From an uncultured Chloroflexia bacterium (GTDB taxonomy: Bacteria > Chloroflexota > Limnocylindria > QHBO01), in contig CAWEPF010000002.1 in the NCBI GenBank assembly GCA_963810925.1, forward strand, positions 28,233-92,232: a stretch of DNA of 64,000 bases. The letters are read 5' to 3'. The position numbers were made by a program, and so were the translations under genes. This document shows, piece by piece, positions 17,137 through 50,952 of this stretch. The number at the start of each line of letters is the position of its first letter. Within the stretch, counting starts at the first letter, position 1. Under the pieces are notes generated by a model. It did not search any database. It was not told where the DNA came from and worked only from the letters and a program-made list of their open reading frames with translations.

Positions 17137-18402
17137 CTATGGGTACAGGCCTCGGAGCGTCGTCGCCTCGGCCACCCGCGACACGGCCACCATGTAGGCC
17201 GCCGTCCGCATGTGGACCTCGTGCAGGTCGCTCATCTTGTAGACCGCCTCGAACGCGCGATCCATGATCTCCTTGAGGCTCTCGTTGATGCGGGCCTCGG
17301 TCCAGAAGAAGGACTGCATGTCCTGGACCCACTCGAAGTAGCTGACCGTGACCCCGCCCGCGTTGCACAGGATGTCGGGGATCACGAAGACACCGCGCTC
17401 GAACAGGATGGCATCGGCCTCGGGCGTGGTCGGTCCGTTGGCGGCCTCGGCCACCACCTTGGCCTGGATCCGGTGGGCGACGTCGGCGGTGATCTGGTTC
17501 TCGAGTGCGGCCGGAATGAGGATGTCGCAGTCGAGGGTCAGCAGCTCGTCGTTGGTCACCGTGGTCGTTCCGGGGAAGCCGACCACGGTCCCGTGCTCCT
17601 GCTTCCAGGCACCCACCTTGGCCGGGTCCAACCCGGCCGGGTTGTGGATGCCGCCGGTCGAGTCGCTGACCGCCACGATGGTTGCGCCCTCCGCGGCCAG
17701 GAGCTGGGCGGCGATGGAGCCGGCATTGCCGTAGCCCTCGATTGCGACCCGTGCGCCGGCGAGCGGCAGGTTCAGGACGGTGGACGCCTGCTGGAGGCAG
17801 AACACGGCGCCGCGGGCGGTCGCCTCGTTGCGGCCCAGCGAGCCACCGATCGCGATCGGCTTGCCGGTCACCACGCCCGAGATCGTGTAGCCGTTGTGCA
17901 TCGAGTAGGTGTCCATCATCCAGGCCATGGTCTGGGAGTTCGTGTTCACGTCCGGCGCGGGGATGTCCCGGTCCGGACCGATGAGCGGGCTGATCTCGGT
18001 CGTGAACCGGCGGGTCAGGCCCTCGAGCTCCTTCCGGGACAGCTTCTTGGGATCGACGATCACGCCGCCCTTGCCGCCGCCGTAGGGGATGTTCACGACC
18101 GCGCACTTCCAGGTCATCCACATGGACAGGGCCCGCACCTCGTCCAGGGTCACGTCCTGGTGGTAGCGGATGCCGCCCTTGGCCGGGCCGCGCGAGAGGT
18201 TGTGCTGGACGCGGTAGCCGGTGAAGACCTCCACGTGCCCGTCGTCCATGGTGACCGGGAAGTGGACCGTGAGCTCGCGCTTGGGTTCTCGCAGGACGCG
18301 TCGCAGACCTGGATCCAGGTCGAGCTTCTCGGCGGCCTGGTCGAACTGCTGCTGGGCCACCGCCCAGATGTTCGGAGCCTCGGCGGTTGACTGGTCGGTC
18401 AT
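17137..18402 (-). CDS. gdh: glutamate dehydrogenase (Glu/Leu/Phe/Val dehydrogenase family), canonical
   Basis: 421 aa with all hallmark motifs: GPAKGGIRYH, MTWKCA, PYGGGKGG, PAPDVNT, GYGNAGS, ANGPTTPEAD, NAGGVTVSYFEW. Confidence 0.9.
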   Translation of the reverse strand: MTDQSTAEAPNIWAVAQQQFDQAAEKLDLDPGLRRVLREPKRELTVHFPVTMDDGHVEVFTGYRVQHNLSRGPAKGGIRYHQDVTLDEVRALSMWMTWKCAVVNIPYGGGKGGVIVDPKKLSRKELEGLTRRFTTEISPLIGPDRDIPAPDVNTNSQTMAWMMDTYSMHNGYTISGVVTGKPIAIGGSLGRNEATARGAVFCLQQASTVLNLPLAGARVAIEGYGNAGSIAAQLLAAEGATIVAVSDSTGGIHNPAGLDPAKVGAWKQEHGTVVGFPGTTTVTNDELLTLDCDILIPAALENQITADVAHRIQAKVVAEAANGPTTPEADAILFERGVFVIPDILCNAGGVTVSYFEWVQDMQSFFWTEARINESLKEIMDRAFEAVYKMSDLHEVHMRTAAYMVAVSRVAEATTLRGLYP

Positions 18403-18513: not shown

Positions 18514-19700
18514 CTAGACCAGTTCGACGGCCAGGGCCACCGCTCCCCCGCCGCCGAGGCACAGGGTCGCGAGGCCCCGCTTCCCGCCGCGATTGCGGAG
18601 GGCGTACAGGAGCGTCGTGAGCACGCGTGCCCCGGATGCACCGATGGGATGGCCCAGCGCCACGGCGCCGCCGTTGACGTTGACCTTGTCCCAGTCGAAG
18701 CCCAGGGCGTTGCCATCGGCCAGGACCTGGGCGGCGAAGGCCTCGTTGATCTCGATCAGGTCGAAGTCGGCCAGCGGGATGCCCACCTTCTCGACCAGCC
18801 GCTGCACCCCGTCGATCGGTGCCTCGAACAGCCACTCGGGGGCGACGTCGGCCTGGGCGTAGCCGAGGATGCGGGCCATGGGCTGGAGTGCCGGCATCGG
18901 CGACCCGATCGCCGGAGGCGAGGACCAGGGCCGCGGCGCCATCGGTGATGCCGGGGGAGTTGCCGGCCGTGACGGTGCCGGTGCCATCGGTCTGGAAGGC
19001 GGGCTTGAGGTTGGCCAGCGCCTCGGCCGAGGTGTCGGGGCGGGGCCCTTCATCGGTGTCCACGATGGTCGGGCCCTTCTTGCCGGGCACCTCGACCGGG
19101 ACGATCTCGTCCGCGAACGCGCCCGACGCCTGCGCGGCCAGGGCCCGCTGGTGGGAGCGCAGGGCGAAGGCGTCCTGGGCCTCGCGGCTGACCTGGTGCT
19201 TGTTTGCCACCCGCTCGGCGTGGATGCCCATGTGGACGTCGCAGGCGGTGCACCACAGGCCGTCGTACACGGTGGCGTCCACGAGCTCCTGGTTGCCGAG
19301 CCGGTAGCCGGCCCGGGCACCGGGGAGCAGGTACGGGCCCAGGTTCATGTTCTCCATGCCCCCGGCCACGATCACGGCCGCGTCACCGGCCGTGATGGAC
19401 GCAGCGCCCAGCATCACGGCCTTCAGGCCGGAGCCGCACACCTTGTTGATGGTCGTGGCACTGACCCCGTCCGGCAGCCCGGCCTTGCGCGCCGCCTGGC
19501 GGGCGGGGGCCTGGCCCGCGCCGGCCTGGATGACCTGGCCCATGAAGACCTCGTCCACGGTCGCCGGGTCCATGCCCGACCGCTCGACCGCAGCCCGGAT
19601 GGCCACCGCTCCCAGGTCCGTGGCCGGAACCGTGGACAGGCGCGCCCCCGAACTTGCCGATGGGCGTCCGGGCGGCGGACAGGATGAAGACGTCGGTCAC
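18514..19700 (-). CDS. acetyl-CoA C-acetyltransferase (thiolase), two frame interruptions as sequenced
   Basis: N-terminus [19 protein letters not shown] (ORF 19383..19748), core with the active-site Cys in [10 protein letters not shown] (ORF 18506..19606), and C-terminus NEAFAAQ...[19 protein letters not shown]...CLGGGGAVA (ORF 18514..19320). Frame shifts near ~19641 and ~18889. Confidence 0.85.
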
Positions 19701-31130: not shown

Positions 31131-31157
31131 CGGTATCTCTCCTCTGATGGGCCGTGT

Positions 31158-32030
31158 TCAGCCGATCTTATGGCCCTGGTCGTCGTATCGGTAGAAGCCA
31201 CGGCCGGTCTTCCGGCCCAGGTGACCGGCGGCCACCATCTGGCGGAGCAGCGGGGCGGCACGGAACTTGGGGTCGCCAAAGCCGCGCAGCAGGACGTCCA
31301 TGACGTTGAGCATGACGTCGTTACCGATGAAGTCGCTGAGCTCCAGCGGGCCCATCGGGTGGTTCAGGCCCAGGCGGGCACCGGTGTCGATCTCCTCGGC
31401 GGTCCCGGTGCCCTCCATGAGGGCGAAGATCGCCTCGTTGATGAACGGGCCGAGCATCCGGTTGACGAGGAAGCCGGGGTAGTCCTTGGAGGTGATGACC
31501 GTCTTGCCCAGCTCCTGGGCAAAGGCCCGGCATGCTTCCTCGGTAGCGTCCGAGGTGTCCAGGCCGCGGATGATCTCGATCAGGCCCATGACCGGGACCG
31601 GTGAGAAGAAATGCAGACCGATGAACCGATCCGGCCGATCGGTGGCGGTGGCCAGGGCGGTGATGCTGATCGACGAGGTGTTGGTCGCGAAGATGGCTCC
31701 GGGGTCGGCGACATCGGTCAGGGCGGTCCACGTTTCGCGCTTGAGGCCCTCGTCCTCGAACACGGCCTCGATGACGATGTCGTGTCCGGCCGCGCCGTCG
31801 ACCCCGACCGCGGTCCCGATCCGGCCCATGGTCTCGTCGGCCGCCGCCTGGTCCAGGCGCCCCTTTTCGACCTGGCGGGCGAGGTTGGACTCGATTCGCT
31901 GCCGGCCCTTGGCCGCCAGGTCATCGGTCCGGTCGGCGAGGGTCACCGACTTGCCGGCCGCGGCGCTCACCTGGGCGATCCCGTGGCCCATGAGACCGGC
32001 GCCGACGACGTAGACGCGTTCGAGGGTCAT
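31158..32030 (-). CDS. hbd: 3-hydroxybutyryl-CoA / 3-hydroxyacyl-CoA dehydrogenase
   Basis: ATG at 32030 within ORF 31158..32315; 290 aa. VVGAGLMGHGIAQ Rossmann motif, NTSSISIT, HFFSPVPVM, and PGFLVNR motifs. Confidence 0.9.
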   Translation of the reverse strand: MTLERVYVVGAGLMGHGIAQVSAAAGKSVTLADRTDDLAAKGRQRIESNLARQVEKGRLDQAAADETMGRIGTAVGVDGAAGHDIVIEAVFEDEGLKRETWTALTDVADPGAIFATNTSSISITALATATDRPDRFIGLHFFSPVPVMGLIEIIRGLDTSDATEEACRAFAQELGKTVITSKDYPGFLVNRMLGPFINEAIFALMEGTGTAEEIDTGARLGLNHPMGPLELSDFIGNDVMLNVMDVLLRGFGDPKFRAAPLLRQMVAAGHLGRKTGRGFYRYDDQGHKIG

Positions 32031-32043
32031 CGGTCGCAGCCTA

Positions 32044-32955
32044 TCAGTCGAGCAGCGCGTCGGCCGCGGCGAACGGGTCCAGGCGACGGTCCGCGACGGC
32101 GGCCACCGTCTCGTCCCAGGACGGCGCCGCGGTGGCGCGGGCGATGGCCCGGTTGGCCAGGGCGCGGCGCACGAGCTCGGCGGCGTGGGCGCGGTGGCGT
32201 TCCGGGGTCCGCGCGGCCCGGTGCGCGGCGATCGCGGCGGCCAGGGTGTCGACACCCGCGCCGGTGGTGGCGGTCGTGACCAGGACACGCGGCGCGGGAC
32301 GGGTGACGCGGCCACCGGCCGTGGAGAGCATGGCTTTCAGCTGGCGGGCGGTGCGGTCGGCCCCAGGCCGGTCGCCCTTGTTGACCGCGACCACGTCGGC
32401 CACCTCCAGCAGCCCGGCCTTGATGGCCTGCACCTCGTCCCCCATCTCGGGCGCCTCGACAACGACCGTGGTCTCGGCCAGGGTCGCCACGTCCACCTCG
32501 GACTGGCCGGCGCCCACCGTCTCGATGACGACCGGGTCGTAGCCCGCCGCGTCCATGGCCGCGGCGGTCAGCCAGGTCGCCCCGGCCAGCCCGCCCAGCG
32601 CGCCGCGCGAGGCCATGGAGCGGACGAACACGCCCTCGTCGCCGGCGTGCTCCATCATCCGGATCCGGTCGCCCATGATCGCGCCCCCGGTCACCGGGGA
32701 GCTGGGATCAACCGCGATCACCCCCACTCGCCGGCCCTCGCTCCGCCAGTGGCGAATGAGCGCGTTGACCAGGGTGGACTTGCCGCTCCCCGGAGGCCCG
32801 GTGACGCCCACCAGGTGTGCGTCGTGGCCGGCGGCGAACACCGCTCCCAGGTCGGGGCCGGCGAGCGTGCCGTCCTCGAGATCGGTGAGCAGCCGAGCCA
32901 GCGCGCGACGGTCGCCGGCCTGGGCGTCGCGCAGGCGATCGGCCAGCTCAGGCAC
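32044..32955 (-). CDS. meaB: acyl-CoA mutase-associated G3E GTPase (MeaB/ArgK family)
   Basis: ORF 32044..33015. I prefer the GTG at 32955 (VPELADRL...[11 protein letters not shown]), which overlaps the upstream gene by 8 nt. P-loop GPPGSGKST, then VIAVDPSSP and NKGD motifs. Confidence 0.8.
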
Positions 32956-33364
32956 GCCGACGGGCGTGCTCCCGGAAGTAGGTTGCCACCTGCCCGATGG
33001 TCGTGCCCGGGCCAAAGACCTCGGCCACGCCCGCGGCCTTCAGGCTCGCCACGTCGGCGTCGGGGATGATCCCGCCGGCCGCGACCAGCACGTCGTCCAG
33101 TCCCTTGGCCCGGACCAGCTCCACGATCCGGGGCAGGAGGGTCATGTGCGCGCCGGACAGGATGGAGAGGCCCACCACGTCCACGTCCTCCTGCTCGGCG
33201 GCGTCGGCCACCATCTCGGGGGTCTGGCGCAGACCGGTGTAGATGACCTCGAACCCTTCGTCGCGCAGGCCGCGGGCCAGGACCTTCGCCCCTCGGTCGT
33301 GGCCGTCCAGGCCGGGCTTGGCGAGCAGGACGCGGATCGGGCGAGCGGACGCGTCGGCGGTCAT
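32948..33364 (-). CDS. icmB: acyl-CoA mutase small subunit, cobalamin-binding domain
   Basis: ATG at 33364 within ORF 32948..33583; 138 aa. Reads [31 protein letters not shown] (DxHxxG B12 motif), SILSGAH, and GGIIP. See the ICM-type large subunit at 48488. Confidence 0.8.
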
Positions 33365-33690: not shown

Positions 33691-34272
33691 CTAGCGGGCC
33701 GTCGGATGACCGATGAAGCTGAGGAACTCCGCGCGCGTCTTGGCATCACGGCGGAAGGTGCCCAGCATGGCCGAGGTGACCATCGTCGCGCCCGGACGAC
33801 GAACGCCGCGCATGGCAATGCACAGGTGGGTCGTCTCGAGGACCACGCCCACCCCCTTGGGCTCCAGGCGGGTCATCAGGAATTCGGCGATCTGAGACGT
33901 CATCCGCTCCTGGAGCTGAAGCCGATGGGCGAACAGGTCCACCACCCGGGGCACCTTCGACAGACCGATGACCCGGCCCCGCGGCAGGTAGCCCACGTGC
34001 GCCGTCCCGAAGAACGGGACGAGGTGGTGCTCGCACAGCGAGTACACCTCGATGTCGCGGACGACCACCATCTCGTCGTAGTCGACCTCGAACGTCGCCT
34101 CGTCCAGGATCGAGTCGGGATCGGTGTGGTAGCCCTCGGTCAGCTGTTCCAGGGTGCGTCGCACCCGGCCGGGCGTGTCGCGCAGACCGGCGCGGTCGGG
34201 GTCCTCGCCGATCCCTTCCAGGATCGCCCGGACCGCGGCCTCCATCGATGCAGCGCGCTCATCGGTTCCCAT
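33691..34272 (-). CDS. folE: GTP cyclohydrolase I
   Basis: ATG at 34272 within ORF 33691..34569; 193 aa. Reads [39 protein letters not shown], and HLCIAMRGV. Confidence 0.9.
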
Positions 34273-34315
34273 GGCCGCCGATGCTAGCAGCCGATTGGCG
34301 GGGTATCGTCCGGCC

Positions 34316-36343
34316 GTGAACGGCACGCCACGACAGTGGGCGGCAGCGCTTGCCACCGTCGTGGCCGTGGGGATCGGTCTGGGCGCGGCCTGGATCTGGC
34401 CCATCGTCTCGGTCGCCACCGTCTGGCCGTACCTGCTGGTGGTCCCCGGCTGGGCGCTCGTCGCGTGGGCGTGCCGCGGCCGCGCGCGGATGCCGGCCAC
34501 CGGGCGGCTGGGCCTGGCCATCGTCCTGTCGGTCGCCGTCTCGGCCCATCTGGGGTGGTGGCTGGCCACCCTGGCCGGTGGCTACGGGCGCGAAACGATC
34601 TTCATCGCCGCCGCCATCCTCGCCCTGCCCCTGCCCATCGCGGCCTGGCGAACGGCCAACGGCCCGCAGGGCTGGTTCGCGGACGCCGCTCGCTCCGCTG
34701 GTCGGTCCCTGCGTCGCAACCGCGGCGGATTCGCGCTCGGGTTGGGCGCAACCCTCTGGGTGGGCGCAGTCCTTGCCCGCGGCCTGTGGCAGACCGACAC
34801 GGGCGCCGTGCTCGTGGCCGGCTCGAACTGGAGCGACCTGGGCGTCCACATGTCCATTGCCCAGTCGGTCAACGCGGGCAACTTCCCGCCGCAGGTCCCG
34901 TTCTTCGCCGGCGAGCCGCTCATCTACCACTGGTTCGCCGACTTCCACGCCGCCCTCTTGGCTCGCGCGGCCGACCTGTTCGCGGTCCCGGTCTTCGTCG
35001 TCCAGTCCGCGGCGCTGGCCGGAGCGCTCGCGCTGGTGGTCCACGGCCTGGCCCTGGTCCTCGTCCGCGAGTGGTCGGCCCATCGCACTGCGTTCCTGGC
35101 GACGGTCCTCGTGGTCCTGGGCGGCGGCCTGGGATGGACACGCCTCGTGGGCGACCTGGCGACCGGGCAGGGATCGCTGCTGGACCTGCTGATGATCCAC
35201 GCGTACGACAACCAGTGGCTGACCGGGTTCCCCGAGTTCTCCATCCCGTCGGTCATGACCACCGGGCTCCTCGTCCACCGGGCCACGACCGCCGGTCTGC
35301 CGCTGATGGTGGGCGCGGTGCTGCTGATGGCGGTGGGCCTGCCCTCGGCCCGCCGGCGCGCCGAGGGCTTCGTGGACCGCCCACGGCTGATCGTCCTGTC
35401 GGGCCTGGCGGGCGCGCTGCTGGCGCCGTTCCACTTCTTCTTCTTCCCCCTGGTGCCGCTCCTCGTCCTGCTCTGGGTGGCCGTCGGGCGCCGCTTCGAC
35501 CGCACGGCCGTCGCCAACGCGGGCCGCTTCGCCGCGCCGTACCTGCTCGCCATCCCGTTCGCGCTGCCGGCCGTCACCCAGGCCACCGGATCGGGCTGGC
35601 TCAAGCTCGTCGTCGGCTGGCCCACGGCCCCCATCGCCGACGGCCCGGGCGCGGTCCTGTTCTTCTACCTGACCAACCTGGGCATCCCGTTCGCGTTGGC
35701 CATCCTCGCCCTCGCCATGCGCCGGGCCCCTGCCCGCGCCTTCCTCGCCCTGTGGGTGGCGCTCCTGTTCCTCATCCCGAACGTGGTTCAGCTCAGCTTC
35801 GTGTCGTTCGACATGAACAAGTACTTCCAGGCGATGTGGATCGCGGTCGCGGTTCTCGCGGGCTGGCTGCTCGCCCGGTGGCCCACGGCGGCGGTGGTGG
35901 TCGTTCTCGTGCTCAGCATGGCGTCCCCCGTCCTGGCATCGGTCCACCACGCGTTCTCGCGCAACTTCTTGATGGGGCCCGACCAGGTGGCGGCCGCGGC
36001 CTGGGTCGCGGCCGAGACGCCGGAACGATCGGTGTTCGTGACCGATGACTGGATCATCTCCCCCACCGATCCGGCAGGGCGGCTGCGCCTCACCACCTAC
36101 GGACCCTACGTGGCCAACCTGGGCTTCAACGTGATCGACCGCATCGCCCAGGTCAAGACCATCCGCTGTGGCGGCGATGCGACGGCGTCCGCGGCGCTCA
36201 TGCGGCAGCTGGGCGCGACCTACGTCATCGCCTCCACGGCCGCGGACTGCGAGAAGCCGGTGGAATTCGCCGCGAGCCCGCTGTTCGAGCTGGTCTTCGC
36301 CGAGGGGGGCGTGGTGATCTTCCACCTATCATCGGCTCCATGA
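34316..36343 (+). CDS. large polytopic membrane protein, GT-C-type glycosyltransferase-like (ArnT/PMT-like)
   Basis: ORF 34154..36343. The 5' end would overlap folE, so I prefer the GTG at 34316. More than 12 predicted TM helices and a loop motif SNWSDLGVHMSIAQSVNAGNFPPQVPFFAGEPLIYHWFADFH. Family assignment is tentative. Confidence 0.5.
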   Translation: MNGTPRQWAAALATVVAVGIGLGAAWIWPIVSVATVWPYLLVVPGWALVAWACRGRARMPATGRLGLAIVLSVAVSAHLGWWLATLAGGYGRETIFIAAAILALPLPIAAWRTANGPQGWFADAARSAGRSLRRNRGGFALGLGATLWVGAVLARGLWQTDTGAVLVAGSNWSDLGVHMSIAQSVNAGNFPPQVPFFAGEPLIYHWFADFHAALLARAADLFAVPVFVVQSAALAGALALVVHGLALVLVREWSAHRTAFLATVLVVLGGGLGWTRLVGDLATGQGSLLDLLMIHAYDNQWLTGFPEFSIPSVMTTGLLVHRATTAGLPLMVGAVLLMAVGLPSARRRAEGFVDRPRLIVLSGLAGALLAPFHFFFFPLVPLLVLLWVAVGRRFDRTAVANAGRFAAPYLLAIPFALPAVTQATGSGWLKLVVGWPTAPIADGPGAVLFFYLTNLGIPFALAILALAMRRAPARAFLALWVALLFLIPNVVQLSFVSFDMNKYFQAMWIAVAVLAGWLLARWPTAAVVVVLVLSMASPVLASVHHAFSRNFLMGPDQVAAAAWVAAETPERSVFVTDDWIISPTDPAGRLRLTTYGPYVANLGFNVIDRIAQVKTIRCGGDATASAALMRQLGATYVIASTAADCEKPVEFAASPLFELVFAEGGVVIFHLSSAP

Positions 36344-37472
36344 CCGATGCGCCGCAGGGGCTGCCGGCCGCCAGCGGCTCGGTGGTCGCCTTCGAGCACG
36401 TGACCAAGCGGTACGGGGACGGGCCGACCGCGGTCACCGACCTGTCGCTCACCATCCGGGCGGGCGAGATCTGCGTCCTGGTCGGCCCGTCCGGATGCGG
36501 GAAGACGACCACCATGAAGATGGTCAACCGGCTGGTGGAGCCCACCAGCGGGCGGGTCATGATCGACGGCGAGGACGTGGCGAGCCTGCCGCCCGTCGAG
36601 CTTCGGCGGCGGATCGGGTACGTCATCCAGCATGTAGGCCTCTTCCCGCACCTCACCATCGCCGACAACGTGGCAGTCGTTCCCCGGCTCCTGGGCTGGC
36701 CGGCGGCGAGGATCACGGCCCGCACCGAGGAGCTCCTGGACCTGGTGGGCCTCGAGCCGGGCACCTACGGGACGCGCTATCCCGCGGCCCTGTCCGGCGG
36801 CGAGCGTCAGCGGGTGGGGGTGGCGCGGGCGATGGCGGCCGACCCTACCGTCCTGCTCATGGACGAGCCGTTTGGCGCGGTGGACCCCATCCGCCGCGAG
36901 CGGCTCCAGAACGAGTTCCTCCGGCTCCAGGCCCGCCTCCACAAGACGATCGTGTTCGTCACCCATGACGTGGACGAGGCGATCAAGATGGCCGACCGGA
37001 TCGCCATCCTCCAGGTCGGCGGGGTGCTGGCCCAGTACGACACCCCGGACCAGATCCTGGGCGCCCCGACCAGTCCGTTCGTCGAGCACTTCGTGGGGGC
37101 GGACCGCGGCCTCAAGCGCCTGTCGCTGGCCCGGGTGCGCGACCTACCGCTCGCCCAACCCCAGCTGGTGGAAGTGGGCGACTCCTTTGCCGCTGCCCGC
37201 CAGCGCCTGGCCGATGGCACTGCCTGGGCGCTCGTCGTGGATGCCGATCGGCGGCCGGTGGGCTGGCTCGAGACGACCGAGCTGGACGGCGATGGCACGG
37301 TGGGCGCCCAGCGGCCGTCCCCGGCTCGGCCCTGCTCCAGCCCGAATCCACCCTCCGCGACGCGCTGTCGGCGATGCTCGCGTCCTCGGTCCAGGTGGGG
37401 GTCGTGGTCGACGAGCACGACGCTTTGCTGGGGGTGATCAGCGTGGGCGCGATCTCGGCCACGCTCCAGTGA
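36340..37472 (+). CDS. osmoprotectant-type (glycine betaine/choline) ABC transporter ATP-binding protein with C-terminal CBS region; one frame interruption
   Basis: Walker A GPSGCGKTT, signature LSGGERQRV, Walker B LLMDEPFGAVD. The CBS-like tail ...LRDALSAMLASSVQVGVVVDEHDALLGVISVGAISATLQ is in another frame (shift near ~37320). ATGA overlap with the upstream gene. Confidence 0.8.
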
Positions 37473-43994: not shown

Positions 43995-44937
43995 CTAGGG
44001 CAGGGTCAGGATGCGGCGCGGATTCTCGACCGTGATCCGCTCCAGCTCGCCCTCCCCCACCGCCGCCGTCCGGAGGGCGGGCAGGAAGTGCTGCTGGAGG
44101 TAGGTGTAGCCAAAGCCGCCATTCACCTTGAGCTGCCGGTCGTGGCACACGTCCTGGCTGAGCAGCACCTGGCTGCCGTACCCGCGCTCCAGGAGCTCGA
44201 CCAGCAGCTCCACGACGCGGGGCTCGCGCGCCTCGTCCACCGGGTCGAAGCGGTGGCCCAGGAAGTCGAACTGGAGGTTGGCGCCCCGCTCGAGGATGGC
44301 GAGGTAGTGGTCGAGGTCGGGCCACGAGTCGGCATGACCGATGACGACCCGCGCCGGGTCCACCCCCTCGCTCAGGAAGATCGCGAGCTGTTCGCGGCCA
44401 ACCGCTGACTGGACGCCGTGGGTGGTGATTGCCATGCCCGTCCGGAGGGAGGCCCGTGCCGCCGCCCGGTGGACGCGCTCCTCGAGGGCTGACACCCAGG
44501 GCTTGTCGGTCCCGATCTCGCCGATGATCCCGGGCCGCACGTGGCTCTCCCCGACGCCGTGCTCGAACTCGGCCACCAGCTCGTCGGCAAGGTCGTCCAC
44601 CGAGCGCCGGTCGATCCGCGCCTCGGCCGGGTAGTACGGGCCTCGATACCAACCGCAGCCCATGACGATGTGGACGGCGCTCGCGCTGGCCAGGCGACGC
44701 AGGCGCTCCGGGTCGCGGCCGATCCCCGGCAGGGTGAGGTCCACAACCGTTCGCCCGCCGCGTCGACGGAAGTCGCGCAGCTCCTCGGTGATGGTCAGCT
44801 CGTCCGCGGCCAGCTCCCAGTAGTCGAATCGACCCGGGACGTGCCACAGGGCAGACCTTGGTGTGCTCGTGCGGGAGAGCGAATCCCACCCGGTCGGGAG
44901 GGATAGGGCCAGCAACGGTCATTACCCGGGGAGCCAT
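43995..44937 (-). CDS. phosphotriesterase-related (PTER/amidohydrolase) protein; one frame interruption
   Basis: The N-terminus MAPRVMTVAGPIPPDRVGFALPHEHT (HxH metal motif) is at the start of ORF 42862..44937. The remainder is in ORF 43995..44915 (GIIGEIG, ITTHG, IGHAD, SQDV). Shift near ~44858. Confidence 0.75.
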
Positions 44938-45132
44938 GGCGGTACCTCGGTTTTGGGCGCCGGTCAGCGTTCAGCGGACTGCCGGTGCCTCGGGAACAAT
45001 TGGCCCAGCCATGGTGCCACCTCGCACCCATGCCGCGCAAAAGGGGTACCTCGCACGGGGCGCAAGTGCTACAACACCCCGAGTGGCCGCCCAAAATCGA
45101 CGGCCTGGACCACATTGGAGGTCAGTGCAGCG

Positions 45133-45762
45133 ATGAATCAGCGGCCAATGGGGGTAACCATTCTGGCGATCTTCGCCTTTATTGCCGGAGGGTTGGGCAT
45201 CCTCGGCAGCCTCGCCCTGCTGGGTGTGGGCGCATTGTTTTCGGCCTACGCCGGAGGCGGCGGACTGGCCTTCATCTTCGGAATCGTGGCGCTTCTTCTC
45301 AGCTTCCTCTACCTGTACATTGGCTATGGGTTCTGGACGCTGAAGCGGACCGCGTGGAGCCTCGGCCTGGTCGTGTTCGGGGCCGGCATCCTGATTGATG
45401 TCATCGAAACCGCGCTTGGCTATGGGGCCTGGTCCAGCGTCATCTTCACGATCATCATCAATGGCATTGTCCTGTACTACCTGTTGACGCCTGCGGTGAA
45501 GGCCGCGTTTGGCGTGACGGGTGATCTGCAGACCGCAGTCATGAGCGGGCTGCCCATGGGCGGTGGCGCAGCGGCCGGCAGCGCCGCAGCGGCATCTCCA
45601 GCAGCGACGCCAGCGGAAACGTATACCCCGCCCCCGGCACCGGCCGCAGCGCCGGAGCCGCCGGCCGCACCTCCGCCGGCCACCTCCAGCTGGGACGCAC
45701 CGAGCGACACCTCCTCGGGCGGTGGCGAGTCTCACGACGGAGGCGAGGGCGACACCGCCTAG
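45133..45762 (+). CDS. hypothetical membrane protein (4 TM, Ala/Pro-rich tail)
   Basis: The ATG at 45133 within ORF 44863..45762 is preceded by GGAGG. 209 aa with four hydrophobic helices, then a PPPAPAAAPEPPAAPPPA tail. Confidence 0.55.
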   Translation: MNQRPMGVTILAIFAFIAGGLGILGSLALLGVGALFSAYAGGGGLAFIFGIVALLLSFLYLYIGYGFWTLKRTAWSLGLVVFGAGILIDVIETALGYGAWSSVIFTIIINGIVLYYLLTPAVKAAFGVTGDLQTAVMSGLPMGGGAAAGSAAAASPAATPAETYTPPPAPAAAPEPPAAPPPATSSWDAPSDTSSGGGESHDGGEGDTA

Positions 45763-45795
45763 CTGAGCGGTTGCATCTCGCGCACGAAACCTCTC

Positions 45796-45830
45796 GTGGG
45801 CGCCCGGCGGTCAGCCGCCGAGGCGCCCAC
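45796..45830 (+). terminator. long GC-rich hairpin between the membrane-protein gene and the GDH paralog
   Basis: GTGGGCGCC-CGGCGG-TCA-(G)CCGCCG-A-GGCGCCCAC: ~15 bp of pairing with one bulge. No U-tract. Confidence 0.4.
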
Positions 45831-45853
45831 GCTGGTTCACTGAGGGGAACGAC

Positions 45854-47119
45854 ATGAGCGGCGAATCGTCGGGCAACGGCGTCGATCCCTGGGGCGCCGC
45901 CCAGGCCGAATTGGACGCGGTGGCCGAGCGGCTCGAGCTGGACGAGGGCATGCACCGCGTCCTGCGCGTTCCCAAGCGCGAGCTCGAGGTGCACTTTCCC
46001 GTCCGATTCGACGACGGGCATACGGATGCCATGACCGGGTGGCGGGTCCAGCACAACCTCAACCGTGGACCGTCGACCGGCGGCGTGCGCTACACGCCCG
46101 ACCTGACCCTGGCCGAGGTGCGGGCCAACGCCATGCGCAACACCTGGAAGGCGGCCCTGGTCGAGATCCCCTACGGCGGGGCATTCGGCGGCGTAGTCGC
46201 CAACCCCAAGGCCATGTCCGCCCACGAGGTCGAAGGCCTCACCCGGCGGTTCACGACCGAGATCAGCTCGATCATCGGTCCGGCGCGGGACATCCCGATG
46301 CCGGACGTGAACACCGATGACCAGACCATGGCCTGGATGATGGATACCTACTCCATGCACCGCGGCTACACGGTGCGCGCCGTGGTGACCGGGAAGCCGC
46401 CGGCCATTGGCGGCACGCGGGGCCAGCGCGAAGCGGTCAGCCGCGGGGCGCTGCGGGCCATCGAGGCCGTCGCGGCCCAGCAGCAGCTGGCGCTCGATGG
46501 CGCCCGGGTCGTGGTCCAGGGCTTCGGACGAGTGGGCACGATCTTGGCCGAGATGCTGGCCGGCGCCGGCGTCCGAATCGTGGTCCTGGCCGACGATCAC
46601 GTCGCGGTCCGAAACCCGGGGGGAATCGCGATCGGTCCCGCGCTGGCCCACATGGTCGAGCACGACTCCGTGGCAGGCCTGCCCGGTTCGGAGCCCGTGG
46701 ATCGGGACGCCGTCTTCGGCGAGGCTTGCGACGTCCTGGTCAGCGCCGGCCTGCAGCACCAGATCACCCGGGCCAACGCGGGGTCCATCCAGGCCACCAT
46801 CGTCGCCGAGACGGCGACCGCGCCCACCACACCCGAGGCGGATGCCGTTCTCCGTGACAAGGGAGTAGCCGTGATCCCCGACATCCTGGGGACCGCCGGC
46901 GGATTCGTGGTGGGCTACTTCGAATGGGTCCAGGACCTCCAGTCGTTCTTCTGGACCGATGACGAGGTGACCGCGGAGCTGGACCGAGTGATGGACCGGG
47001 CCACCGCCGCGGTGCTGGCCGAGGCGGCCGAGCACCAGGTGGACCTCCGAACGGCCGCGCTGATGGTGGCCGTCCGGCGGGCTGCAGAGGCGACCACGCT
47101 GCGCGGCCTATACCCTTAA
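45854..47119 (+). CDS. Glu/Leu/Phe/Val dehydrogenase-family paralog lacking catalytic residues (probable pseudoenzyme)
   Basis: 421 aa, collinear with the canonical GDH at 17137..18402. Differences: GPSTGGVRY (Lys to Thr), PYGGAFGG (catalytic Lys to Phe), ETATAPTTPEAD (ANGP lost), and TAGGFVVGYFEW (Asn and Ser lost). Confidence 0.8.
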   Translation: MSGESSGNGVDPWGAAQAELDAVAERLELDEGMHRVLRVPKRELEVHFPVRFDDGHTDAMTGWRVQHNLNRGPSTGGVRYTPDLTLAEVRANAMRNTWKAALVEIPYGGAFGGVVANPKAMSAHEVEGLTRRFTTEISSIIGPARDIPMPDVNTDDQTMAWMMDTYSMHRGYTVRAVVTGKPPAIGGTRGQREAVSRGALRAIEAVAAQQQLALDGARVVVQGFGRVGTILAEMLAGAGVRIVVLADDHVAVRNPGGIAIGPALAHMVEHDSVAGLPGSEPVDRDAVFGEACDVLVSAGLQHQITRANAGSIQATIVAETATAPTTPEADAVLRDKGVAVIPDILGTAGGFVVGYFEWVQDLQSFFWTDDEVTAELDRVMDRATAAVLAEAAEHQVDLRTAALMVAVRRAAEATTLRGLYP

Positions 47120-47126
47120 GGGCACG

Positions 47127-48491
47127 GTGGCGACCGAGCACGATCGACCGGAGCAGTACGGCGGGGACGGCCTGGATCTCGCCCGGGACCGCCTGACCCT
47201 CCGCTTCGAGAACCACGACCTGGAGCGAGAGTTCCAGGTTGACCTGGGCGAGCGCCTCACCTTCCAGCTCCAGGGTGGGCTCGTCCTGGGGTTGTCGCTG
47301 TGGGTGACCGCGGCCGCCCTCCTGCCCCTGATCTACGGGACCGACCCGGCGCGAATGGCGATTGCCGTCGCCATTCCCATCGTCGTCCTGGTAGGTGCGT
47401 TCATCGCGGTCAGTCGCGTTCGGAGCTGGGATGCGCAACAGGCGATCAACGGGATCACGAATTTCGTGGGCGGGCTGTCGATGATCTACGTCGCCACGAC
47501 GGTGGTGGGGGTGCCCGAGCTCCTCTCCGCTGCGCTCACGCTCAACGCGATCTTCGCCTTCAGCGTGGTGCGGATGGGCTTCGTGGCGGGCCTGGCCGCC
47601 CAGCTGCCGGTTCTCCTGTGGCTCGGGGCGCTGGCCTGGATCGGCGAGTACCCCGAGATCGGGTGGTTCGGGGTCTTCATCGTGGCAAGCGCCATGGGTG
47701 TCGCCGCGTTCGGGGCCTACATGCTCGAGTCGTCGAGCCGCGCGCGCTTCCTCCAGCGGCAGGCGCTCAAGGAGCAGCGCGAGGCACTGGCCCTAGAGAT
47801 GAAGAAGTCGGACGCGCTCCTGCGTTCCATGCTGCCCCCATCCGTCGCGGAGCGCCTCCGCGACCAGCCCGGGGTCATCGCCGACGCGATCGACGAGGCG
47901 ACGGTCATCTTCTCGGACATCGTGGGCTTCACGACGATCGGTTCCGAAATGGCCCCAACCAATGTCGTGTCCATCTTGAACCAGCTCTTCGGTCGCTTTG
48001 ACGAACTCGCCGTCGAGCACGGCCTCGAGAAGATCAAGACCATCGGCGACGGCTACATGGCCGTGGCTGGGGCGCCACTTCCCGTGGCGGACCACGCCGA
48101 CCGCGCGGTGCGGTTCGGCCTCGAGCTGGTCCAGACCACCGAGGCGCTGGGCGCCGAGGTGGGGGTTCCCCTCCGGTTGCGGGTCGGGATCCATTCCGGA
48201 CCACTGGTCGCCGGCGTCATCGGTCGCGACAAGCTCGCCTACGACCTGTGGGGCGACACGGTCAACGTGGCCAGCCGTATGGAATCGCAGGGCCTGCCCG
48301 GCCGCGTCCAGATCAGCGCCGCAACCGCCGAGCGACTCACCGTGGACCTCGCCCTCGAGCCGCGGGGGACGATCGAGGTCCGGGGGCGCGGACCGATGCG
48401 GGTCCTGCTGGTGGCGGCGGACGAAGCGCCCGCGGCTGCGGGCGCGGTCGAGTTGCCGCCCGATGAGCCAGCCGTGAAGATGCCCGCGTGA
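47127..48491 (+). CDS. membrane-anchored class III adenylate cyclase
   Basis: 454 aa. ~6 TM N-terminal half, then a CYCc domain: [23 protein letters not shown] (substrate Lys), [31 protein letters not shown] (Asp at the purine-specifying position). Confidence 0.85.
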
Positions 48492-50080
48492 CCGAGCGCA
48501 AGTCCCGCTTTACGACCCAATCCGGGGTCGAGATCAATCGGCTGTACACCGCGGACGACCTGGCCGGCTGGGACCCGGAGCGCGACCTCGGGGAGCCGGG
48601 CACACCGCCCTTCACCCGCGGCATCCACCCCACCGGCCATCGCGGGCGGCTGTGGACGATGCGCATGTTCGCCGGCTTCGGGGCCGCGGAGGACACGAAC
48701 GCCCGCTTCCGCCGCCTGATCGCCGAAGGCGGGACGGGCCTGTCCATCGCCTACGACATGCCCACCCTGTACGGGTACGACCACGACGACCCGGAGGCGG
48801 CGGGCGAATTCGGGACGTGCGGGGTGGCGGTCAGCAGCCTGGCCGACATGGAGATCCTGCTCGACGGCCTGCCCATCGGTGAGCTGAGCACCTCGATGAC
48901 CATCAACTCGCCCGCGGCCATGATCTGGGCGATGTACATCGTGGCCGCCGAGAAGGCCGGCGTGCCGCGCGCGCAGCTGGCGGGCACGCTCCAGAACGAC
49001 ATCCTCAAGGAGTTCATCGCCCAGAAGGAGTACATCTTCCCGCCGGCGCCCTCGCTGCGCCTCGTGACCGACACCGTCCAGTTCGGGACGGCCGAGCTGC
49101 CGCGCTGGAACACGATCAGCATCAGCGGCTATCACATCCGCGAGGCGGGCTCGACCGCCGTCCAGGAGCTGGCGTTCACGATCGCCGACGGGATCGCCTA
49201 CGTCGAGGACGCCCTCGCCCGGGGCATGGCCTTCGACGACTTCGCACCGCGCCTGTCGTTCTTCTTCAACAGCCACAACGACTTCTTCGAGGAGATCGCC
49301 AAGTTCCGGGCCGCGCGCCGGATGTGGTACCAGCTCTGCACGCAGCGCTTCGGGGCGGAGAACGAGCGGTCGACCTGGATGCGGTTCCACACCCAGACCG
49401 CGGGCGTGTCCCTCACCGCCCAGCAGCCCCTGAACAACCTGACCCGGGTCGCGATCCAGGCCCTGGCCGCGGTGCTGGGCGGGACCCAGTCGCTCCATAC
49501 CGATGCGTACGACGAGGCGTGGGCCGTTCCCTCGGAAGCGGCCGCCCTCCTCGCCCTCCGCCAGCAGCAGGTCCTGGCGGAGGAGTCCGGCGTGGCCAAC
49601 ACGGTGGATCCGCTGGGTGGGTCGTACTTCGTTGAGGCGCTGACCAACCAGACCGAGGCGGCCGCGTGGGAGTACATCCGTCGCATCGACGACATGGGCG
49701 GCATGCTGGCTGCCGTCGAGGCGGGCTATCCCCAGGCCGAGATCGCGGACGCGGCGTACGCCCAGGTCCAGGCCCTGGAGTCGGGGGAGCACAGCCTGGT
49801 GGGCGTCACCCGCTACGCCGATCCGAACGAGGAGCTGCGCATCCCGCTCCTGGAGATCACGCCCGAGATGGAGCGCCGCCACCTCGACCGCCTGGTCCGC
49901 GTCCGCGCCGAGCGGGACGCCGACGCGCACGCGCGGGCCATCACCCGTCTCCACGACGAGGCGGTCCGGGACGACGTCAACCTCATGCCCGCCATCATCG
50001 CGGGCCGTGGAGGCGTACGCGACCATCGGTGAGATGTGCGGGGTCCTGCGTGGCGTCTTCGGGGAGTACCGCGAGCCGCT
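48488..50080 (+). CDS. icmA: acyl-CoA mutase large (catalytic) subunit, isobutyryl-CoA mutase-type signature; one frame interruption
   Basis: The GTG overlaps the cyclase stop (GTGA). [26 protein letters not shown] and [21 protein letters not shown] carry Phe and Gln where methylmalonyl-CoA mutase has Tyr89/Arg207. The C-terminus ...[27 protein letters not shown] is reached after a shift near ~50003. There is no fused B12 domain. Confidence 0.8.
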
Positions 50081-50235
50081 CGCCGTCTGACGCGTACTTC
50101 AGGGTTCCTCGAGGGGGTACCGGCGGCTCACGTCGGCTGACCAAGGTACCCCCGCGAGGGTGAAACCTTCGCCATCCCCATCGGCTCAAGCGTTGTAGAG
50201 ACTGGCATCGGCCTGGCACGGGCCGCCGAGCCCTC

Positions 50236-50952
50236 ATGTCGCGTGGGGTCAACAACATGAAGCTAAGCCCGCGTTTCGCGATCGTGCTGTTCGCTGCACT
50301 CGGTCTCGTGCTGGTCGCGATTACCGATCGCATCCTGCCCGGGACCACCGAGCACCAGCAGGAGCTGCAGATCTGGCTTGCCGCGCGCGCAACCGGGGTC
50401 GCGGGGCTCGTGTTGCTCGCCGTGATGGTGGTACTCGGCATCCTGATGAGCCACCCGGAGCAGACCCGCTGGAAGGCCGCCAAGACGATCTACCCGTGGC
50501 ACGAGACGCTCTGGGTCTTCGTATTGGCCTTCATGGTCGTCCACGCCGTAAGCCTGGCGCTCGATCCGTTCGCCGAGGTCGGGCTGGGCGGGATGCTGGT
50601 CCCCGGCCTCTCGACGTATCGACCCATCCCCGTCGCGATTGGCGTGGTGGCGCTGTACGCCGCCCTGATCACCGGCCTCACCGCGCGCTTTACCAAGCTC
50701 CTGCCCACCGGGTGGTGGCTGAAGCTCCACCGGTTTGCGCTCGTGGTCCTGGCCCTTGCCTGGACCCATGGCGTCCTGGCAGGGACCGACACGCTTGCGT
50801 TCGCGCCCTTCTACTGGGGGATCGCTGCCGCAGTCGCCGTGGCCGGTGCCCACCGCTTCTGGATCATGCGCCCACGGGTGGTCCGGAAGACGACTCACGC
50901 CCTTGTTCCAGCACCGGAGGACACGCATGAACCATCCGTTCGTACGCCGTAG
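50236..50952 (+). CDS. ferric-reductase-like (FRD/MsrQ-like) di-heme transmembrane protein
   Basis: 238 aa, 6 TM. Two His pairs with FRD-type spacing: HETLWVFVLAFMVVH and HRFALVVLALAWTH. Confidence 0.65.
   Translation: MSRGVNNMKLSPRFAIVLFAALGLVLVAITDRILPGTTEHQQELQIWLAARATGVAGLVLLAVMVVLGILMSHPEQTRWKAAKTIYPWHETLWVFVLAFMVVHAVSLALDPFAEVGLGGMLVPGLSTYRPIPVAIGVVALYAALITGLTARFTKLLPTGWWLKLHRFALVVLALAWTHGVLAGTDTLAFAPFYWGIAAAVAVAGAHRFWIMRPRVVRKTTHALVPAPEDTHEPSVRTP

What the first reader, a model, noticed from the sequence alone, without database searches (positions are those of the whole stretch)
45854..47119. Glutamate-dehydrogenase paralog that has lost catalytic residues, in an operon with an adenylate cyclase and an acyl-CoA mutase subunit
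The window encodes two 421-aa, collinear GDH-family proteins. The copy at 17137..18402 has every hallmark.

In the copy at 45854..47119:
- the glutamate-binding Lys of GP-x-KGG is Thr (GPSTGGVRY);
- the catalytic Lys of GGGKGG is Phe (PYGGAFGG);
- the ANGP segment is ATAP;
- NAGGV-x-x-S is TAGGFVVG.

These correspond to K89, K125 and S380 in Clostridium symbiosum GDH numbering. Retained features are the second Lys (TWK), the Asp of P-x-PDVNT, and the GxGxxG fold motif (GFGRVG). The substitutions are whole-codon changes, not frameshift artefacts.

The gene is followed after 7 nt by a membrane adenylate cyclase, which in turn overlaps icmA by GTGA, so the three are likely co-translated. My hypothesis is that a catalytically dead, ligand-binding GDH scaffold acts as a sensor or regulatory partner in amino-acid or branched-acyl-CoA metabolism. 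This is inference.
Basis: partly seen in the sequence, partly recalled or inferred. Interest (0 to 1): 0.65.

Follow-up and report, generated by a model that had tools for sequence, protein, structure and literature searches.

The report
Conserved catalytically dead glutamate dehydrogenase paralog
This soil Chloroflexota (Limnocylindria) genome carries, besides a normal glutamate dehydrogenase, a second full-length copy that has lost the lysines needed for catalysis yet has been kept under selection across the whole class, so it most likely acts as a non-catalytic regulatory partner, as a similar protein does in Thermus.

Summary
Window 45854..47119 (+) encodes a 421-aa GDH-fold protein (pGDH). 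It is 56% identical, without gaps, to the canonical GDH at 17137..18402 (-). It has Thr for K89, Phe for the catalytic K125 and Gly for S380, but keeps K113, D165 and GxGxxG.

This is not decay. All 85 orthologous loci examined (80 species-level Limnocylindria genomes) lack both lysines, and dN/dS is about 0.19. pGDH and canonical GDH lie on the same contig, 24-28 kb apart, in the three genomes measured.

The adenylate cyclase is an insertion found only in the window's subclade. The pGDH-to-IcmA-like mutase neighbourhood is class-wide, but it lies in a broadly syntenic block and is often interrupted by opposite-strand genes.

The closest precedent is Thermus thermophilus GdhA, an inactive regulatory subunit of a GdhA/GdhB heterohexamer, which has also lost K125. 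The Limnocylindria clade never groups with GdhA (0 of 100 bootstraps), so it is an independent origin. It keeps the leucine-site residues invariant.

Best reading (about 0.45): a non-catalytic regulatory subunit of the canonical GDH. The main rival is a ligand sensor for a neighbouring enzyme. I rate it a new variant of a known kind, of moderate interest.

The parts
45854..47119 (+). pGDH: a 421-aa GDH-fold paralog that lacks the K89 and K125 equivalents (a pseudo-glutamate dehydrogenase)
   Evidence: ORF and Pfam domains. Gapless 56% identity to the canonical copy. AF2 model with pLDDT 78 and pTM 0.82. Foldseek top hit is 3aoe_A with TM 0.84. Orthologs in 85 loci all lack both lysines. Median dN/dS 0.19.
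46076..46078 (+). Codon ACC = Thr75, at the position of the gamma-carboxyl-binding Lys (K89 in C. symbiosum GDH)
   Evidence: Across the 85 orthologous loci this position is T in 50, S in 26, N in 7, A in 1 and Y in 1, and never K.
46184..46186 (+). Codon TTC = Phe111, at the position of the catalytic Lys (K125) in the GGGKGG motif
   Evidence: Across the 85 orthologous loci this position is A in 38, M in 26 and F in 21, and never K. Thermus GdhA has Ala at this position.
46913..46915 (+). Codon GGC = Gly354, at the position of S380
   Evidence: Gly in 83 of 85 orthologous loci.
46817..46822 (+). Codons for Thr322-Ala323 (ATAP in place of ANGP), a degeneration of the cofactor-site motif that is specific to this lineage
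   Evidence: Asn is retained in 81 of 85 orthologous loci.
17137..18402 (-). Canonical GDH (cGDH) with all catalytic hallmarks; the proposed catalytic partner
   Evidence: Orthologs are 83-91% identical. cGDH lies on the same contig as pGDH, 24-28 kb away, in relatives.
47127..48491 (+). Membrane class III adenylate cyclase, a lineage-specific insertion between pGDH and the mutase
   Evidence: Pfam Guanylate_cyc 1.8e-56. Found only in L001, L006, L010-L014 and L016. Junction sequences. The metal, substrate and transition-state residues can be read directly from the sequence ([24 protein letters not shown]).
48488..50090 (+). Large subunit of an IcmA-like acyl-CoA mutase, with no B12-binding domain; it carries an apparent +1 frameshift near 50004-50005
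   Evidence: Pfam MM_CoA_mutase 1.7e-202. TIGR00641 match. Best solved structure is HcmA 4r3u. Frameshift shown. It lies downstream of pGDH in essentially all loci.
43995..44915 (-). Phosphotriesterase-family gene, the conserved divergently oriented upstream neighbour
   Evidence: Pfam PTE 1.7e-60. Present upstream in nearly all loci that extend that far.
45139..45762 (+). Small predicted membrane protein with a Pro/Ala-rich tail, directly upstream of pGDH (context only)
   Evidence: ORF. No Pfam hit. A 193-aa unannotated gene occupies the same position in L001. It is absent in more distant loci.

Best explanation
pGDH is a pseudoenzyme: a GDH-fold protein that can no longer perform oxidative deamination or reductive amination but is kept under purifying selection throughout the class Limnocylindria.

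The most likely mechanism is inferred, not shown. pGDH co-assembles with the canonical GDH encoded 27.5 kb away into hetero-hexamers and serves as a non-catalytic regulatory subunit, as GdhA does for GdhB in Thermus thermophilus. In this model the conserved oligomerisation core (domain I), the C-terminal ...RGLYP tail and the interface leucine-type allosteric site are what selection preserves. The former active-site cleft has been remodelled in a fixed way, and the dinucleotide-fold motifs are mostly kept. Such a subunit would change the activity or allosteric response of the GDH complex, for example to hydrophobic amino acids.

In the window's own lineage the gene is additionally packed with a membrane adenylate cyclase and an IcmA-like mutase. 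This probably couples its expression, but not necessarily its function, to those genes.
For: SHOWN:
1. Loss of K89 and K125 and gain of G354, with retention of K113, D165 and GxGxxG.
2. All 120 closest database proteins and all 85 genomic loci (80 species-level genomes) lack both lysines. K99 is kept in 84/85, D151 in 85/85 and G354 in 83/85.
3. Purifying selection: median dN/dS is 0.19, and 0.10 against the closest relative.
4. pGDH and cGDH co-occur on the same contig. Coordinates were measured in three genomes: 27.5 kb apart in the window, about 28 kb in OY969424.1 and about 24 kb in contig_30070.
5. Precedent: Thermus GdhA (PDB 3aoe chain E) has GGAAGG, so it has lost the same catalytic Lys. 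It is described as a catalytically inactive regulatory subunit in a leucine-activated heterohexamer (PMC9570180; bioRxiv 10.1101/2025.10.31.685773).
6. The residues that bind leucine in the Thermus complex are the second Arg of TRR, the Asp of MDTYS, and the C-terminal Arg, Tyr and Pro. They are invariant in both the pGDH and cGDH clades. They are not universal in the family: R132 occurs in 74/150 representatives, the C-terminal Tyr in 33/150 and Pro in 54/150.
7. Domain I is the best-conserved part of pGDH (mean conservation 0.86, against 0.75 for the NAD domain) and shares 75% of consensus residues with cGDH. The two paralogs are exactly collinear.
8. Sites changed in pGDH overlap the sites changed in the independently derived GdhA: 22/34 against 44/161, Fisher p = 5e-5.
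9. Other Lys-less GDH lineages sit next to a canonical GDH gene. In L088 the two genes overlap by 8 nt; for P0167 a second ELFV gene lies 4.4 kb away.
Against: - There is no physical or expression evidence for a pGDH-cGDH complex.
- The two genes are not adjacent, unlike Thermus gdhA-gdhB and the L088 pair.
- pGDH is not orthologous to GdhA: it never grouped with it in 100 bootstraps, and identity is 40%. The analogy therefore rests on convergence.
- 31 clade-fixed differences are strongly conserved, for example T75, N96, A110, R226, D248, G299 and F288. This could equally mean that a new ligand pocket or a new partner surface has been selected.
- Conservation of the leucine site and of domain I would also be expected for a homo-hexameric sensor.
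- The site-overlap test is inflated by rate heterogeneity among sites.
- The sister relationship between the pGDH and cGDH clades has only 55% bootstrap support.
Confidence: 0.45

Rival explanations
1. pGDH is a stand-alone ligand sensor that binds NAD(H) and/or a neutral amino or oxo acid. It regulates a different enzyme by direct binding, most plausibly the IcmA-like acyl-CoA mutase encoded downstream. This would resemble the T. thermophilus alanine-dehydrogenase-like pseudoenzyme ADLP, which senses NAD+ and inhibits a CoA transferase.
For: - pGDH is followed on the same strand by the mutase in essentially all 85 loci. In 28 loci the gap is 450 bp or less.
- GxGxxG and D247 are invariant, and Asn322 is kept in 81/85, so dinucleotide binding is plausible.
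- The ex-active site is remodelled in a conserved rather than random way. K89 becomes T/S and S380 becomes G, which removes gamma-carboxylate recognition, while the alpha-carboxylate Lys (K99) and D151 are kept.
- ADLP is a precedent for a dehydrogenase-derived pseudoenzyme that controls an acyl-CoA enzyme.
- No B12-binding small-subunit gene lies next to the mutase in L001-L005.
Against: - The whole 10-15 kb block is syntenic across the class, so adjacency carries little specific information.
- In at least 27 species, opposite-strand genes separate pGDH from the mutase, which breaks any operon.
- pGDH evolves about twice as fast as the mutase (dN 0.120 against 0.052).
- Bulky Phe/Met at position 111 and Phe/Met/Leu at position 351 may simply fill the pocket.
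- In the window's own lineage the cofactor motif ANGP has degenerated to ATAP.
Confidence: 0.2
2. pGDH is a neofunctionalised enzyme. It uses the retained K99, D151 and Rossmann fold for a different NAD(P)-dependent reaction, or acts on a different substrate, without needing the K125-type general base.
For: - Cleft substitutions are strongly conserved (T/S75, N96, A110, G354) and the dinucleotide motifs are retained.
- The K89 and S380 positions are the classical substrate-specificity positions of the ELFV family (established knowledge).
Against: - K125 is the essential catalytic residue in all characterised Glu/Leu/Phe/Val dehydrogenases (established knowledge).
- Its replacement here is variable (Ala, Met or Phe), which does not look like a selected catalytic residue.
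- The only characterised GDH homolog lacking this Lys, Thermus GdhA, is reported to be inactive (PMC9570180).
- The window's lineage has also lost Asn322.
Confidence: 0.12
3. pGDH is a cytosolic sensor partner of the membrane adenylate cyclase encoded 7 nt downstream. This is the reader's operon reading: metabolite binding by pGDH would modulate cAMP synthesis.
For: - The genes are tightly packed in the window, with a 7-nt gap followed by a GTGA overlap.
- The same arrangement is found in 7 related loci.
- The cyclase keeps its canonical catalytic residues, as read from the sequence.
Against: - The cyclase is absent from about 90% of species that carry pGDH, including sister species at 77-79% identity (L007-L009, L015).
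- The same intergenic site has accepted unrelated genes in other lineages.
- The pGDH substitutions predate the cyclase insertion.
Confidence: 0.05
4. The gene is a decaying duplicate with no function, or the substitutions are assembly errors.
For: - The window contains several apparent frameshifts, in the mutase near 50004, in the thiolase at 18.5-19.7 kb, and elsewhere.
- pGDH evolves about twice as fast as cGDH.
Against: - The 421-codon ORF is intact and collinear with cGDH.
- The same substitutions occur in 85 independent loci.
- dN/dS is 0.10-0.24.
- 118 columns are invariant across both paralog clades.
Confidence: 0.02

Closest known systems
Thermus thermophilus GdhA, the regulatory subunit of the GdhA/GdhB hetero-hexameric GDH (PDB 3AOE chains C-F; Tomita et al. 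2010, 2011, as cited in PMC9570180)
   Same: - Full-length GDH fold of about 420 aa.
- The catalytic Lys of GGGKGG is lost, together with the Gly-to-Ala change just before it (GGAAGG in GdhA, GGA[F/M/A]GG here).
- K113 and D165 equivalents are retained.
- A catalytically complete paralog exists in the same genome.
- The leucine-site residues (TRR, MDTYS, C-terminal R..YP) are identical.
- The sets of canonical-conserved sites that have changed overlap significantly.

   Different: - Not orthologous: 40% identity, and never grouped together in 100 bootstraps.
- GdhA keeps K89 and S380, whereas pGDH has lost both.
- pGDH keeps the acidic residue at the end of beta-2 (D247) where GdhA has Thr.
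- Thermus gdhA and gdhB form an operon, whereas the two genes here are 27.5 kb apart.
- Heteromer formation and leucine activation are demonstrated for Thermus and untested here.
T. thermophilus ADLP, an alanine-dehydrogenase-like pseudoenzyme that senses NAD+ and inhibits a CoA transferase (bioRxiv 10.1101/2025.10.31.685773)
   Same: - An amino-acid-dehydrogenase paralog that has lost catalytic residues but keeps a dinucleotide-binding fold.
- A possible link to an acyl-CoA-metabolising enzyme.
   Different: - A different dehydrogenase family (AlaDH rather than ELFV).
- The partner is known experimentally for ADLP; here the mutase link rests on gene order alone.
Canonical hexameric GDH of the Thermotoga / Pyrococcus / Thermus GdhB type (e.g. 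PDB 1b26, 3aog, 4xgi)
   Same: - Same two Pfam domains, length and predicted fold, with TM 0.82-0.86.
- 44-49% sequence identity.
   Different: - Lacks the K89, K125 and S380 equivalents.
- Scores 404 bits against 594 for the window's canonical copy on NCBIfam GdhA_Arch.
Other uncharacterised Lys-less GDH lineages in metagenomes (e.g. P0160, P0167, P0137, P0202)
   Same: - 17 of 150 family representatives lack the catalytic Lys.
- Some are encoded in tandem with a canonical GDH.
   Different: - They fall in separate clades on the NJ tree.
- They have different replacement residues and different gene neighbourhoods.

Membership tests
ELFV (Glu/Leu/Phe/Val) dehydrogenase superfamily | N-terminal dimerisation domain (PF02812) plus C-terminal NAD(P)-binding domain (PF00208) | tested here: met
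   E-values 6.5e-47 and 1.3e-53, with both profiles matched end to end. Foldseek TM 0.82-0.86 to solved GDHs.
Catalytically competent glutamate dehydrogenase (EC 1.4.1.2-4) | Catalytic Lys in GGGKGG (K125 in C. symbiosum numbering) | tested here: not met
   F111 in the window. A, M or F in all 85 orthologous loci.
Catalytically competent glutamate dehydrogenase (EC 1.4.1.2-4) | Gamma-carboxylate recognition by K89 and S380 | tested here: not met
   T75 and G354 in the window. The orthologs have T, S, N, A or Y at position 75, and Gly at position 354 in 83/85.
Catalytically competent glutamate dehydrogenase (EC 1.4.1.2-4) | K113, D165 and the GxGxxG dinucleotide fold | tested here: met
   K99 in 84/85 and D151 in 85/85 loci. 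G223, G225 and G228 are invariant.
Catalytically competent glutamate dehydrogenase (EC 1.4.1.2-4) | Measurable glutamate/2-oxoglutarate dehydrogenase activity | not testable with these tools
   Requires recombinant protein.
Thermus-type GdhA regulatory GDH subunit | GDH homolog that lacks the catalytic Lys | tested here: met
   GdhA has GGAAGG; pGDH has GGAFGG.
Thermus-type GdhA regulatory GDH subunit | Common descent with (orthology to) T. thermophilus GdhA | tested here: not met
   NJ tree and 100 bootstraps: pGDH grouped with GdhA 0 times out of 100. Identity is 40% to GdhA against 56% to its own cGDH.
Thermus-type GdhA regulatory GDH subunit | A catalytic GDH paralog encoded in the same genome | tested here: met
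   Same contig in the window.
Thermus-type GdhA regulatory GDH subunit | gdhA and gdhB adjacent in one operon | tested here: not met
   The genes are 27.5 kb apart in the window, on opposite strands, and 24-28 kb apart in relatives.
Thermus-type GdhA regulatory GDH subunit | Interface leucine-binding residues (Arg of TRR, Asp of MDTYS, C-terminal Arg/Tyr/Pro) | tested here: met
   R132, D164, R417, Y420 and P421 are invariant in both the pGDH and cGDH clades. The residue list comes from PMC9570180.
Thermus-type GdhA regulatory GDH subunit | Physical hetero-hexamer with the catalytic subunit and leucine activation | not testable with these tools
   Needs co-purification and kinetics. No multimer prediction was available.
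ADLP-like NAD+-sensing pseudo-dehydrogenase | Retained NAD(H) binding despite lost catalysis | tested here: inconclusive
   GxGxxG and D247 are invariant and N322 is kept in 81/85. However, the window has T322/A323, and several fixed changes lie in the cofactor cleft (N226R, P297S, A299G).
ADLP-like NAD+-sensing pseudo-dehydrogenase | Complex with, and regulation of, an acyl-CoA enzyme | not testable with these tools
   Only gene order is available.

The most novel reading that the evidence does not exclude
pGDH is not a GDH subunit at all. It is an ancient, class-wide metabolite/redox sensor built from a dead GDH scaffold, and it directly controls the neighbouring IcmA-like acyl-CoA mutase (or, in the window's lineage, feeds into cAMP signalling). 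More broadly, Lys-less GDH paralogs make up about 11% of the family clusters sampled here and arose many times, so they would form a large unrecognised class of bacterial metabolic regulators.
Probability: 0.2. Interest if true: 0.65.

Novelty: new variant of a known kind. Interest (0 to 1): 0.45.

Why it matters
Catalytically dead enzyme paralogs that regulate their active relatives are well known in eukaryotes, but few have been documented in bacteria. For GDH the only characterised case is Thermus GdhA.

This finding shows a second, independently evolved lineage. It is fixed across an abundant, uncultured soil class (Limnocylindria) and has a different substitution pattern and genomic arrangement. 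It sits among many other Lys-less GDH lineages.

If the heteromer model holds, control of the carbon-nitrogen branch point by pseudo-subunits is a recurrent solution, and annotation pipelines that name all these proteins 'glutamate dehydrogenase' overcount GDH activity in metagenome-based metabolic models. If pGDH instead regulates the mutase, it would be a new type of regulator of acyl-CoA metabolism.

Tried and rejected
- Looked for a misalignment that would restore Lys at the catalytic positions. The alignment is gapless and no alternative Lys lies nearby. Rejected.
- Tested whether the cyclase is a conserved partner. It is present only in the window plus 7 loci of one subclade. Rejected as the ancestral partner.
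- Tested orthology to Thermus GdhA. Rejected.
- Promoter and terminator scan of 44800-50400 found nothing informative: 0 promoter-like sites, and terminator-like sites at chance level.
- The two original Thermus papers (PMC3199488, PMC6597394) are not held. I relied on secondary descriptions, and recovered the GdhA sequence from a PDB alignment.
- A literature search for Limnocylindria plus GDH returned nothing. A search for pseudoenzyme plus GDH returned only the Thermus work.
- The AF2 monomer model confirms the fold only. Residues 141-186 have low pLDDT, so I did not use it for pocket or interface analysis.
- I did not survey the whole window for an IcmB (B12-binding subunit) or MeaB gene.
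Full report
**1. Observation**

The ORF at 45854..47119 (+) is intact and encodes 421 aa with both ELFV dehydrogenase domains. It aligns to the canonical GDH at 17137..18402 (-) over all 421 residues with no gaps, at 56% identity.

A motif alignment to C. symbiosum GDH (1bgv residues 86-137, gapless) fixes the numbering:
- K89 corresponds to T75.
- K113 corresponds to K99, which is retained.
- K125 corresponds to F111.

The codons are ACC and TTC, against AAG and AAG in the canonical copy. S380 is G354, ANGP is ATAP, and NAGG is TAGG. D151 (PDVNT) and GFGRVG are retained. The 7-nt spacing to the cyclase start and the GTGA overlap with the mutase start are also correct.

**2. Not an artefact and not a decaying gene**

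The 120 best database hits (63-94% identity) are nearly all annotated as Chloroflexota or Candidatus Limnocylindria MAGs. All of them lack both lysines.

A scan of one genome per species returned 80 loci. Including five loci fetched earlier, position 75 is T in 50, S in 26, N in 7, A in 1 and Y in 1. Position 111 is A in 38, M in 26 and F in 21. K99 is kept in 84/85, D151 in 85/85 and G354 in 83/85. N322 is kept in 81/85, so ATAP is a recent, lineage-specific change.

Pairwise dN/dS among the closer relatives has a median of 0.19, and is 0.10 against the 93%-identical L006. For comparison, the mutase gives 0.11, PTE 0.12 and the cyclase 0.25. The protein is therefore under clear purifying selection, although it evolves about twice as fast as the canonical GDH. 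In matched genomes, identity to the window is 65-78% for pGDH and 84-87% for cGDH.

An AF2 model (pLDDT 78, pTM 0.82) has the complete GDH fold. Its best structural match is Thermus GdhB in the hetero-hexamer entry 3AOE (TM 0.84).

**3. Surroundings**

In the window the order is PTE (-), a small membrane protein (+), pGDH (+), a membrane class III adenylate cyclase (+) and an acyl-CoA mutase large subunit (+).

The mutase is closest in sequence to HcmA (4r3u). However, it has Phe in RMFAGFG and Gln in FIAQKEY and lacks the HCM Asp. By my knowledge of the MCM, ICM and HCM specificity residues, this makes it IcmA-like.

Across 85 loci, PTE(-) | pGDH(+) ... mutase(+) is essentially universal. The interval between pGDH and the mutase varies:
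- 28 loci have a gap of 450 bp or less.
- 7 loci plus the window hold the cyclase.
- 13 hold a LAL-type AAA16-TPR-GerE regulator on the opposite strand.
- 14 hold an S9 peptidase on the opposite strand.
- About 12 hold a roughly 1.2-kb insert.

Sister species at 77-79% identity (L007-L009, L015) have no cyclase. The cyclase is therefore a late insertion into an insertion-prone spot, not part of a conserved three-gene unit.

The pGDH-mutase neighbourhood is old, but the whole block is syntenic (OpuAC, DUF1684, TPM phosphatase, dodecin, PolX/PHP, PTE, pGDH, mutase, 5'-3' exonuclease, SpoIID, OCD). Gene order alone cannot name the mutase as the partner.

**4. The canonical paralog**

The canonical GDH has well-conserved orthologs (83-91% identity). 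It lies on the same contig as pGDH. Coordinates were measured in three genomes:
- 27.5 kb apart in the window.
- About 28 kb apart in OY969424.1.
- About 24 kb apart in contig_30070.

In each case examined, cGDH directly follows a thiolase gene.

**5. Comparison with what is known**

T. thermophilus GDH is a hetero-hexamer of a catalytically inactive regulatory subunit, GdhA, and a catalytic subunit, GdhB. It is activated by leucine bound at subunit interfaces (PMC9570180; bioRxiv 10.1101/2025.10.31.685773).

I recovered the GdhA sequence from a PDB alignment. It reads GPAKGG ... LPFGGAAGG, so it has lost exactly the catalytic Lys, with the same preceding Gly-to-Ala change as pGDH, but it keeps K89 and S380.

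The leucine-site residues named for Thermus are the second Arg of TRR, the Asp of MDTYS, and the C-terminal Arg, Tyr and Pro. They are invariant in both Limnocylindria paralog clades. They are not universal in the family: R132 occurs in 74/150 representatives, the terminal Tyr in 33/150 and the terminal Pro in 54/150.

Domain I, the oligomerisation core, is the most conserved part of pGDH.

Of 195 sites at which the Limnocylindria canonical GDH and Thermus GdhB agree, pGDH differs at 34. GdhA also differs at 22 of those 34, against 44 of the other 161 (odds ratio 4.9, p = 5e-5). The shared sites include H81, G110, K111, N226, P297, N347 and V351-V353, which line the catalytic and nicotinamide cleft. 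Rate heterogeneity among sites inflates this test, so I treat it as supportive only.

**6. Independent origin**

In an NJ tree of 152 sequences, the pGDH clade and the Limnocylindria canonical clade are each monophyletic (100/100 bootstraps). They are sisters in 55/100 bootstraps. pGDH never joins GdhA (0/100). Identities are 56% to its own cGDH, 49% to GdhB and 40% to GdhA.

Among 150 representatives of 50%-identity clusters, 17 lack the catalytic Lys, and they are scattered over several clades. In one of these lineages (L088), a canonical GDH gene overlaps the Lys-less gene by 8 nt, beside HMG-CoA lyase and enoyl-CoA hydratase genes. In another, a second ELFV gene lies 4.4 kb away. A third has no GDH neighbour within 5 kb. 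Lys-less GDH paralogs paired with a canonical copy are thus recurrent.

**7. Mechanism**

Shown:
- Loss of the residues required for ELFV chemistry.
- Long-term purifying selection.
- Co-occurrence with a canonical paralog.
- Retention of the oligomerisation core, the C-terminal tail and the leucine-type site.
- Mostly retained dinucleotide-fold motifs.
- A cleft remodelled in a fixed way (T/S75, N96, A110, hydrophobic residue at 111, G354).

Inferred: pGDH co-assembles with cGDH and acts as a non-catalytic regulatory subunit, convergent with Thermus GdhA (confidence about 0.45).

Rivals:
- An ADLP-like stand-alone sensor that acts on the IcmA-like mutase or another enzyme (0.2).
- A neofunctionalised enzyme (0.12).
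- A partner of the cyclase (0.05).
- A functionless relic (0.02).

The remainder is left to unknown roles.

**8. Novelty and verdict**

I found no description of this clade in the literature held here. The kind of thing, an inactive GDH homolog used for regulation, is known from a single organism. This is an independently evolved, class-wide variant with a different substitution pattern (K89 and S380 are also lost) and an unlinked genomic arrangement.

Its functional reading is partly supported: the dead-scaffold and regulatory-role ideas hold, but the conserved operon with the cyclase does not. Interest is moderate, at 0.45. It would be higher if the protein proves to regulate acyl-CoA metabolism, or if the many Lys-less GDH lineages prove to be a general class of regulators.

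Noticed in passing
window 49990-50090: The IcmA-like mutase has one extra base near 50004-50005 relative to L006 and L008. The annotated ORF stops at 50032, but the conserved C-terminus ([27 protein letters not shown]) continues in the +1 frame to 50090. This is either a sequencing indel or a real frameshift.
   Followed up: partly
window 18506-19700 (-), and 11021-13664, 29180-31157, 31158-33039, 34133-37437: The thiolase upstream of the canonical GDH is split over two overlapping frames. Several other pairs of high-GC3 ORFs overlap in the same way. This suggests multiple indel errors typical of a long-read MAG assembly.
   Followed up: no
between pGDH and the mutase: window 47120-48487 and loci L001-L085: This intergenic site is an insertion hot spot in Limnocylindria. 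It is empty in 28 loci. Elsewhere it holds a membrane adenylate cyclase (7 loci plus the window), a LAL-type AAA16-TPR-GerE regulator on the opposite strand (13), an S9 peptidase on the opposite strand (14), or an uncharacterised insert of about 1.2 kb (about 12).
   Followed up: partly
L088 3788-6305: A canonical GDH gene (GPAKGG, GGGKGG) overlaps by 8 nt a Lys-less GDH paralog (GPCLGG, GGSMGG) from an unrelated lineage. The pair lies beside HMG-CoA lyase and enoyl-CoA hydratase genes, which suggests a link to leucine catabolism.
   Followed up: partly
representative proteins P0121-P0270: 17 of 150 representatives of 50%-identity GDH clusters lack the catalytic Lys. They fall in several separate clades of the NJ tree. 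GDH pseudoenzymes appear to be widespread and annotated as ordinary GDH.
   Followed up: partly
L025 (JBBQGI010000015.1): PTE, pGDH and the start of the mutase each appear twice in mirror-image orientation on this contig. This is probably a palindromic assembly artefact.
   Followed up: no
window 17137-19700 (-); L091; L092: The canonical GDH is always directly preceded on the same strand by a thiolase gene. The distance from cGDH to pGDH (24-28 kb) is conserved across relatives whose pGDH is 65-78% identical to the window's.
   Followed up: partly
loci L040, L049, L054, L069, L073 and L004: Loci with typical Limnocylindria synteny are labelled Steroidobacteraceae, Methylomirabilota, Angelobacter or Zixibacteria in their MAG records. 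These are probably mis-binned or mis-classified contigs.
   Followed up: no
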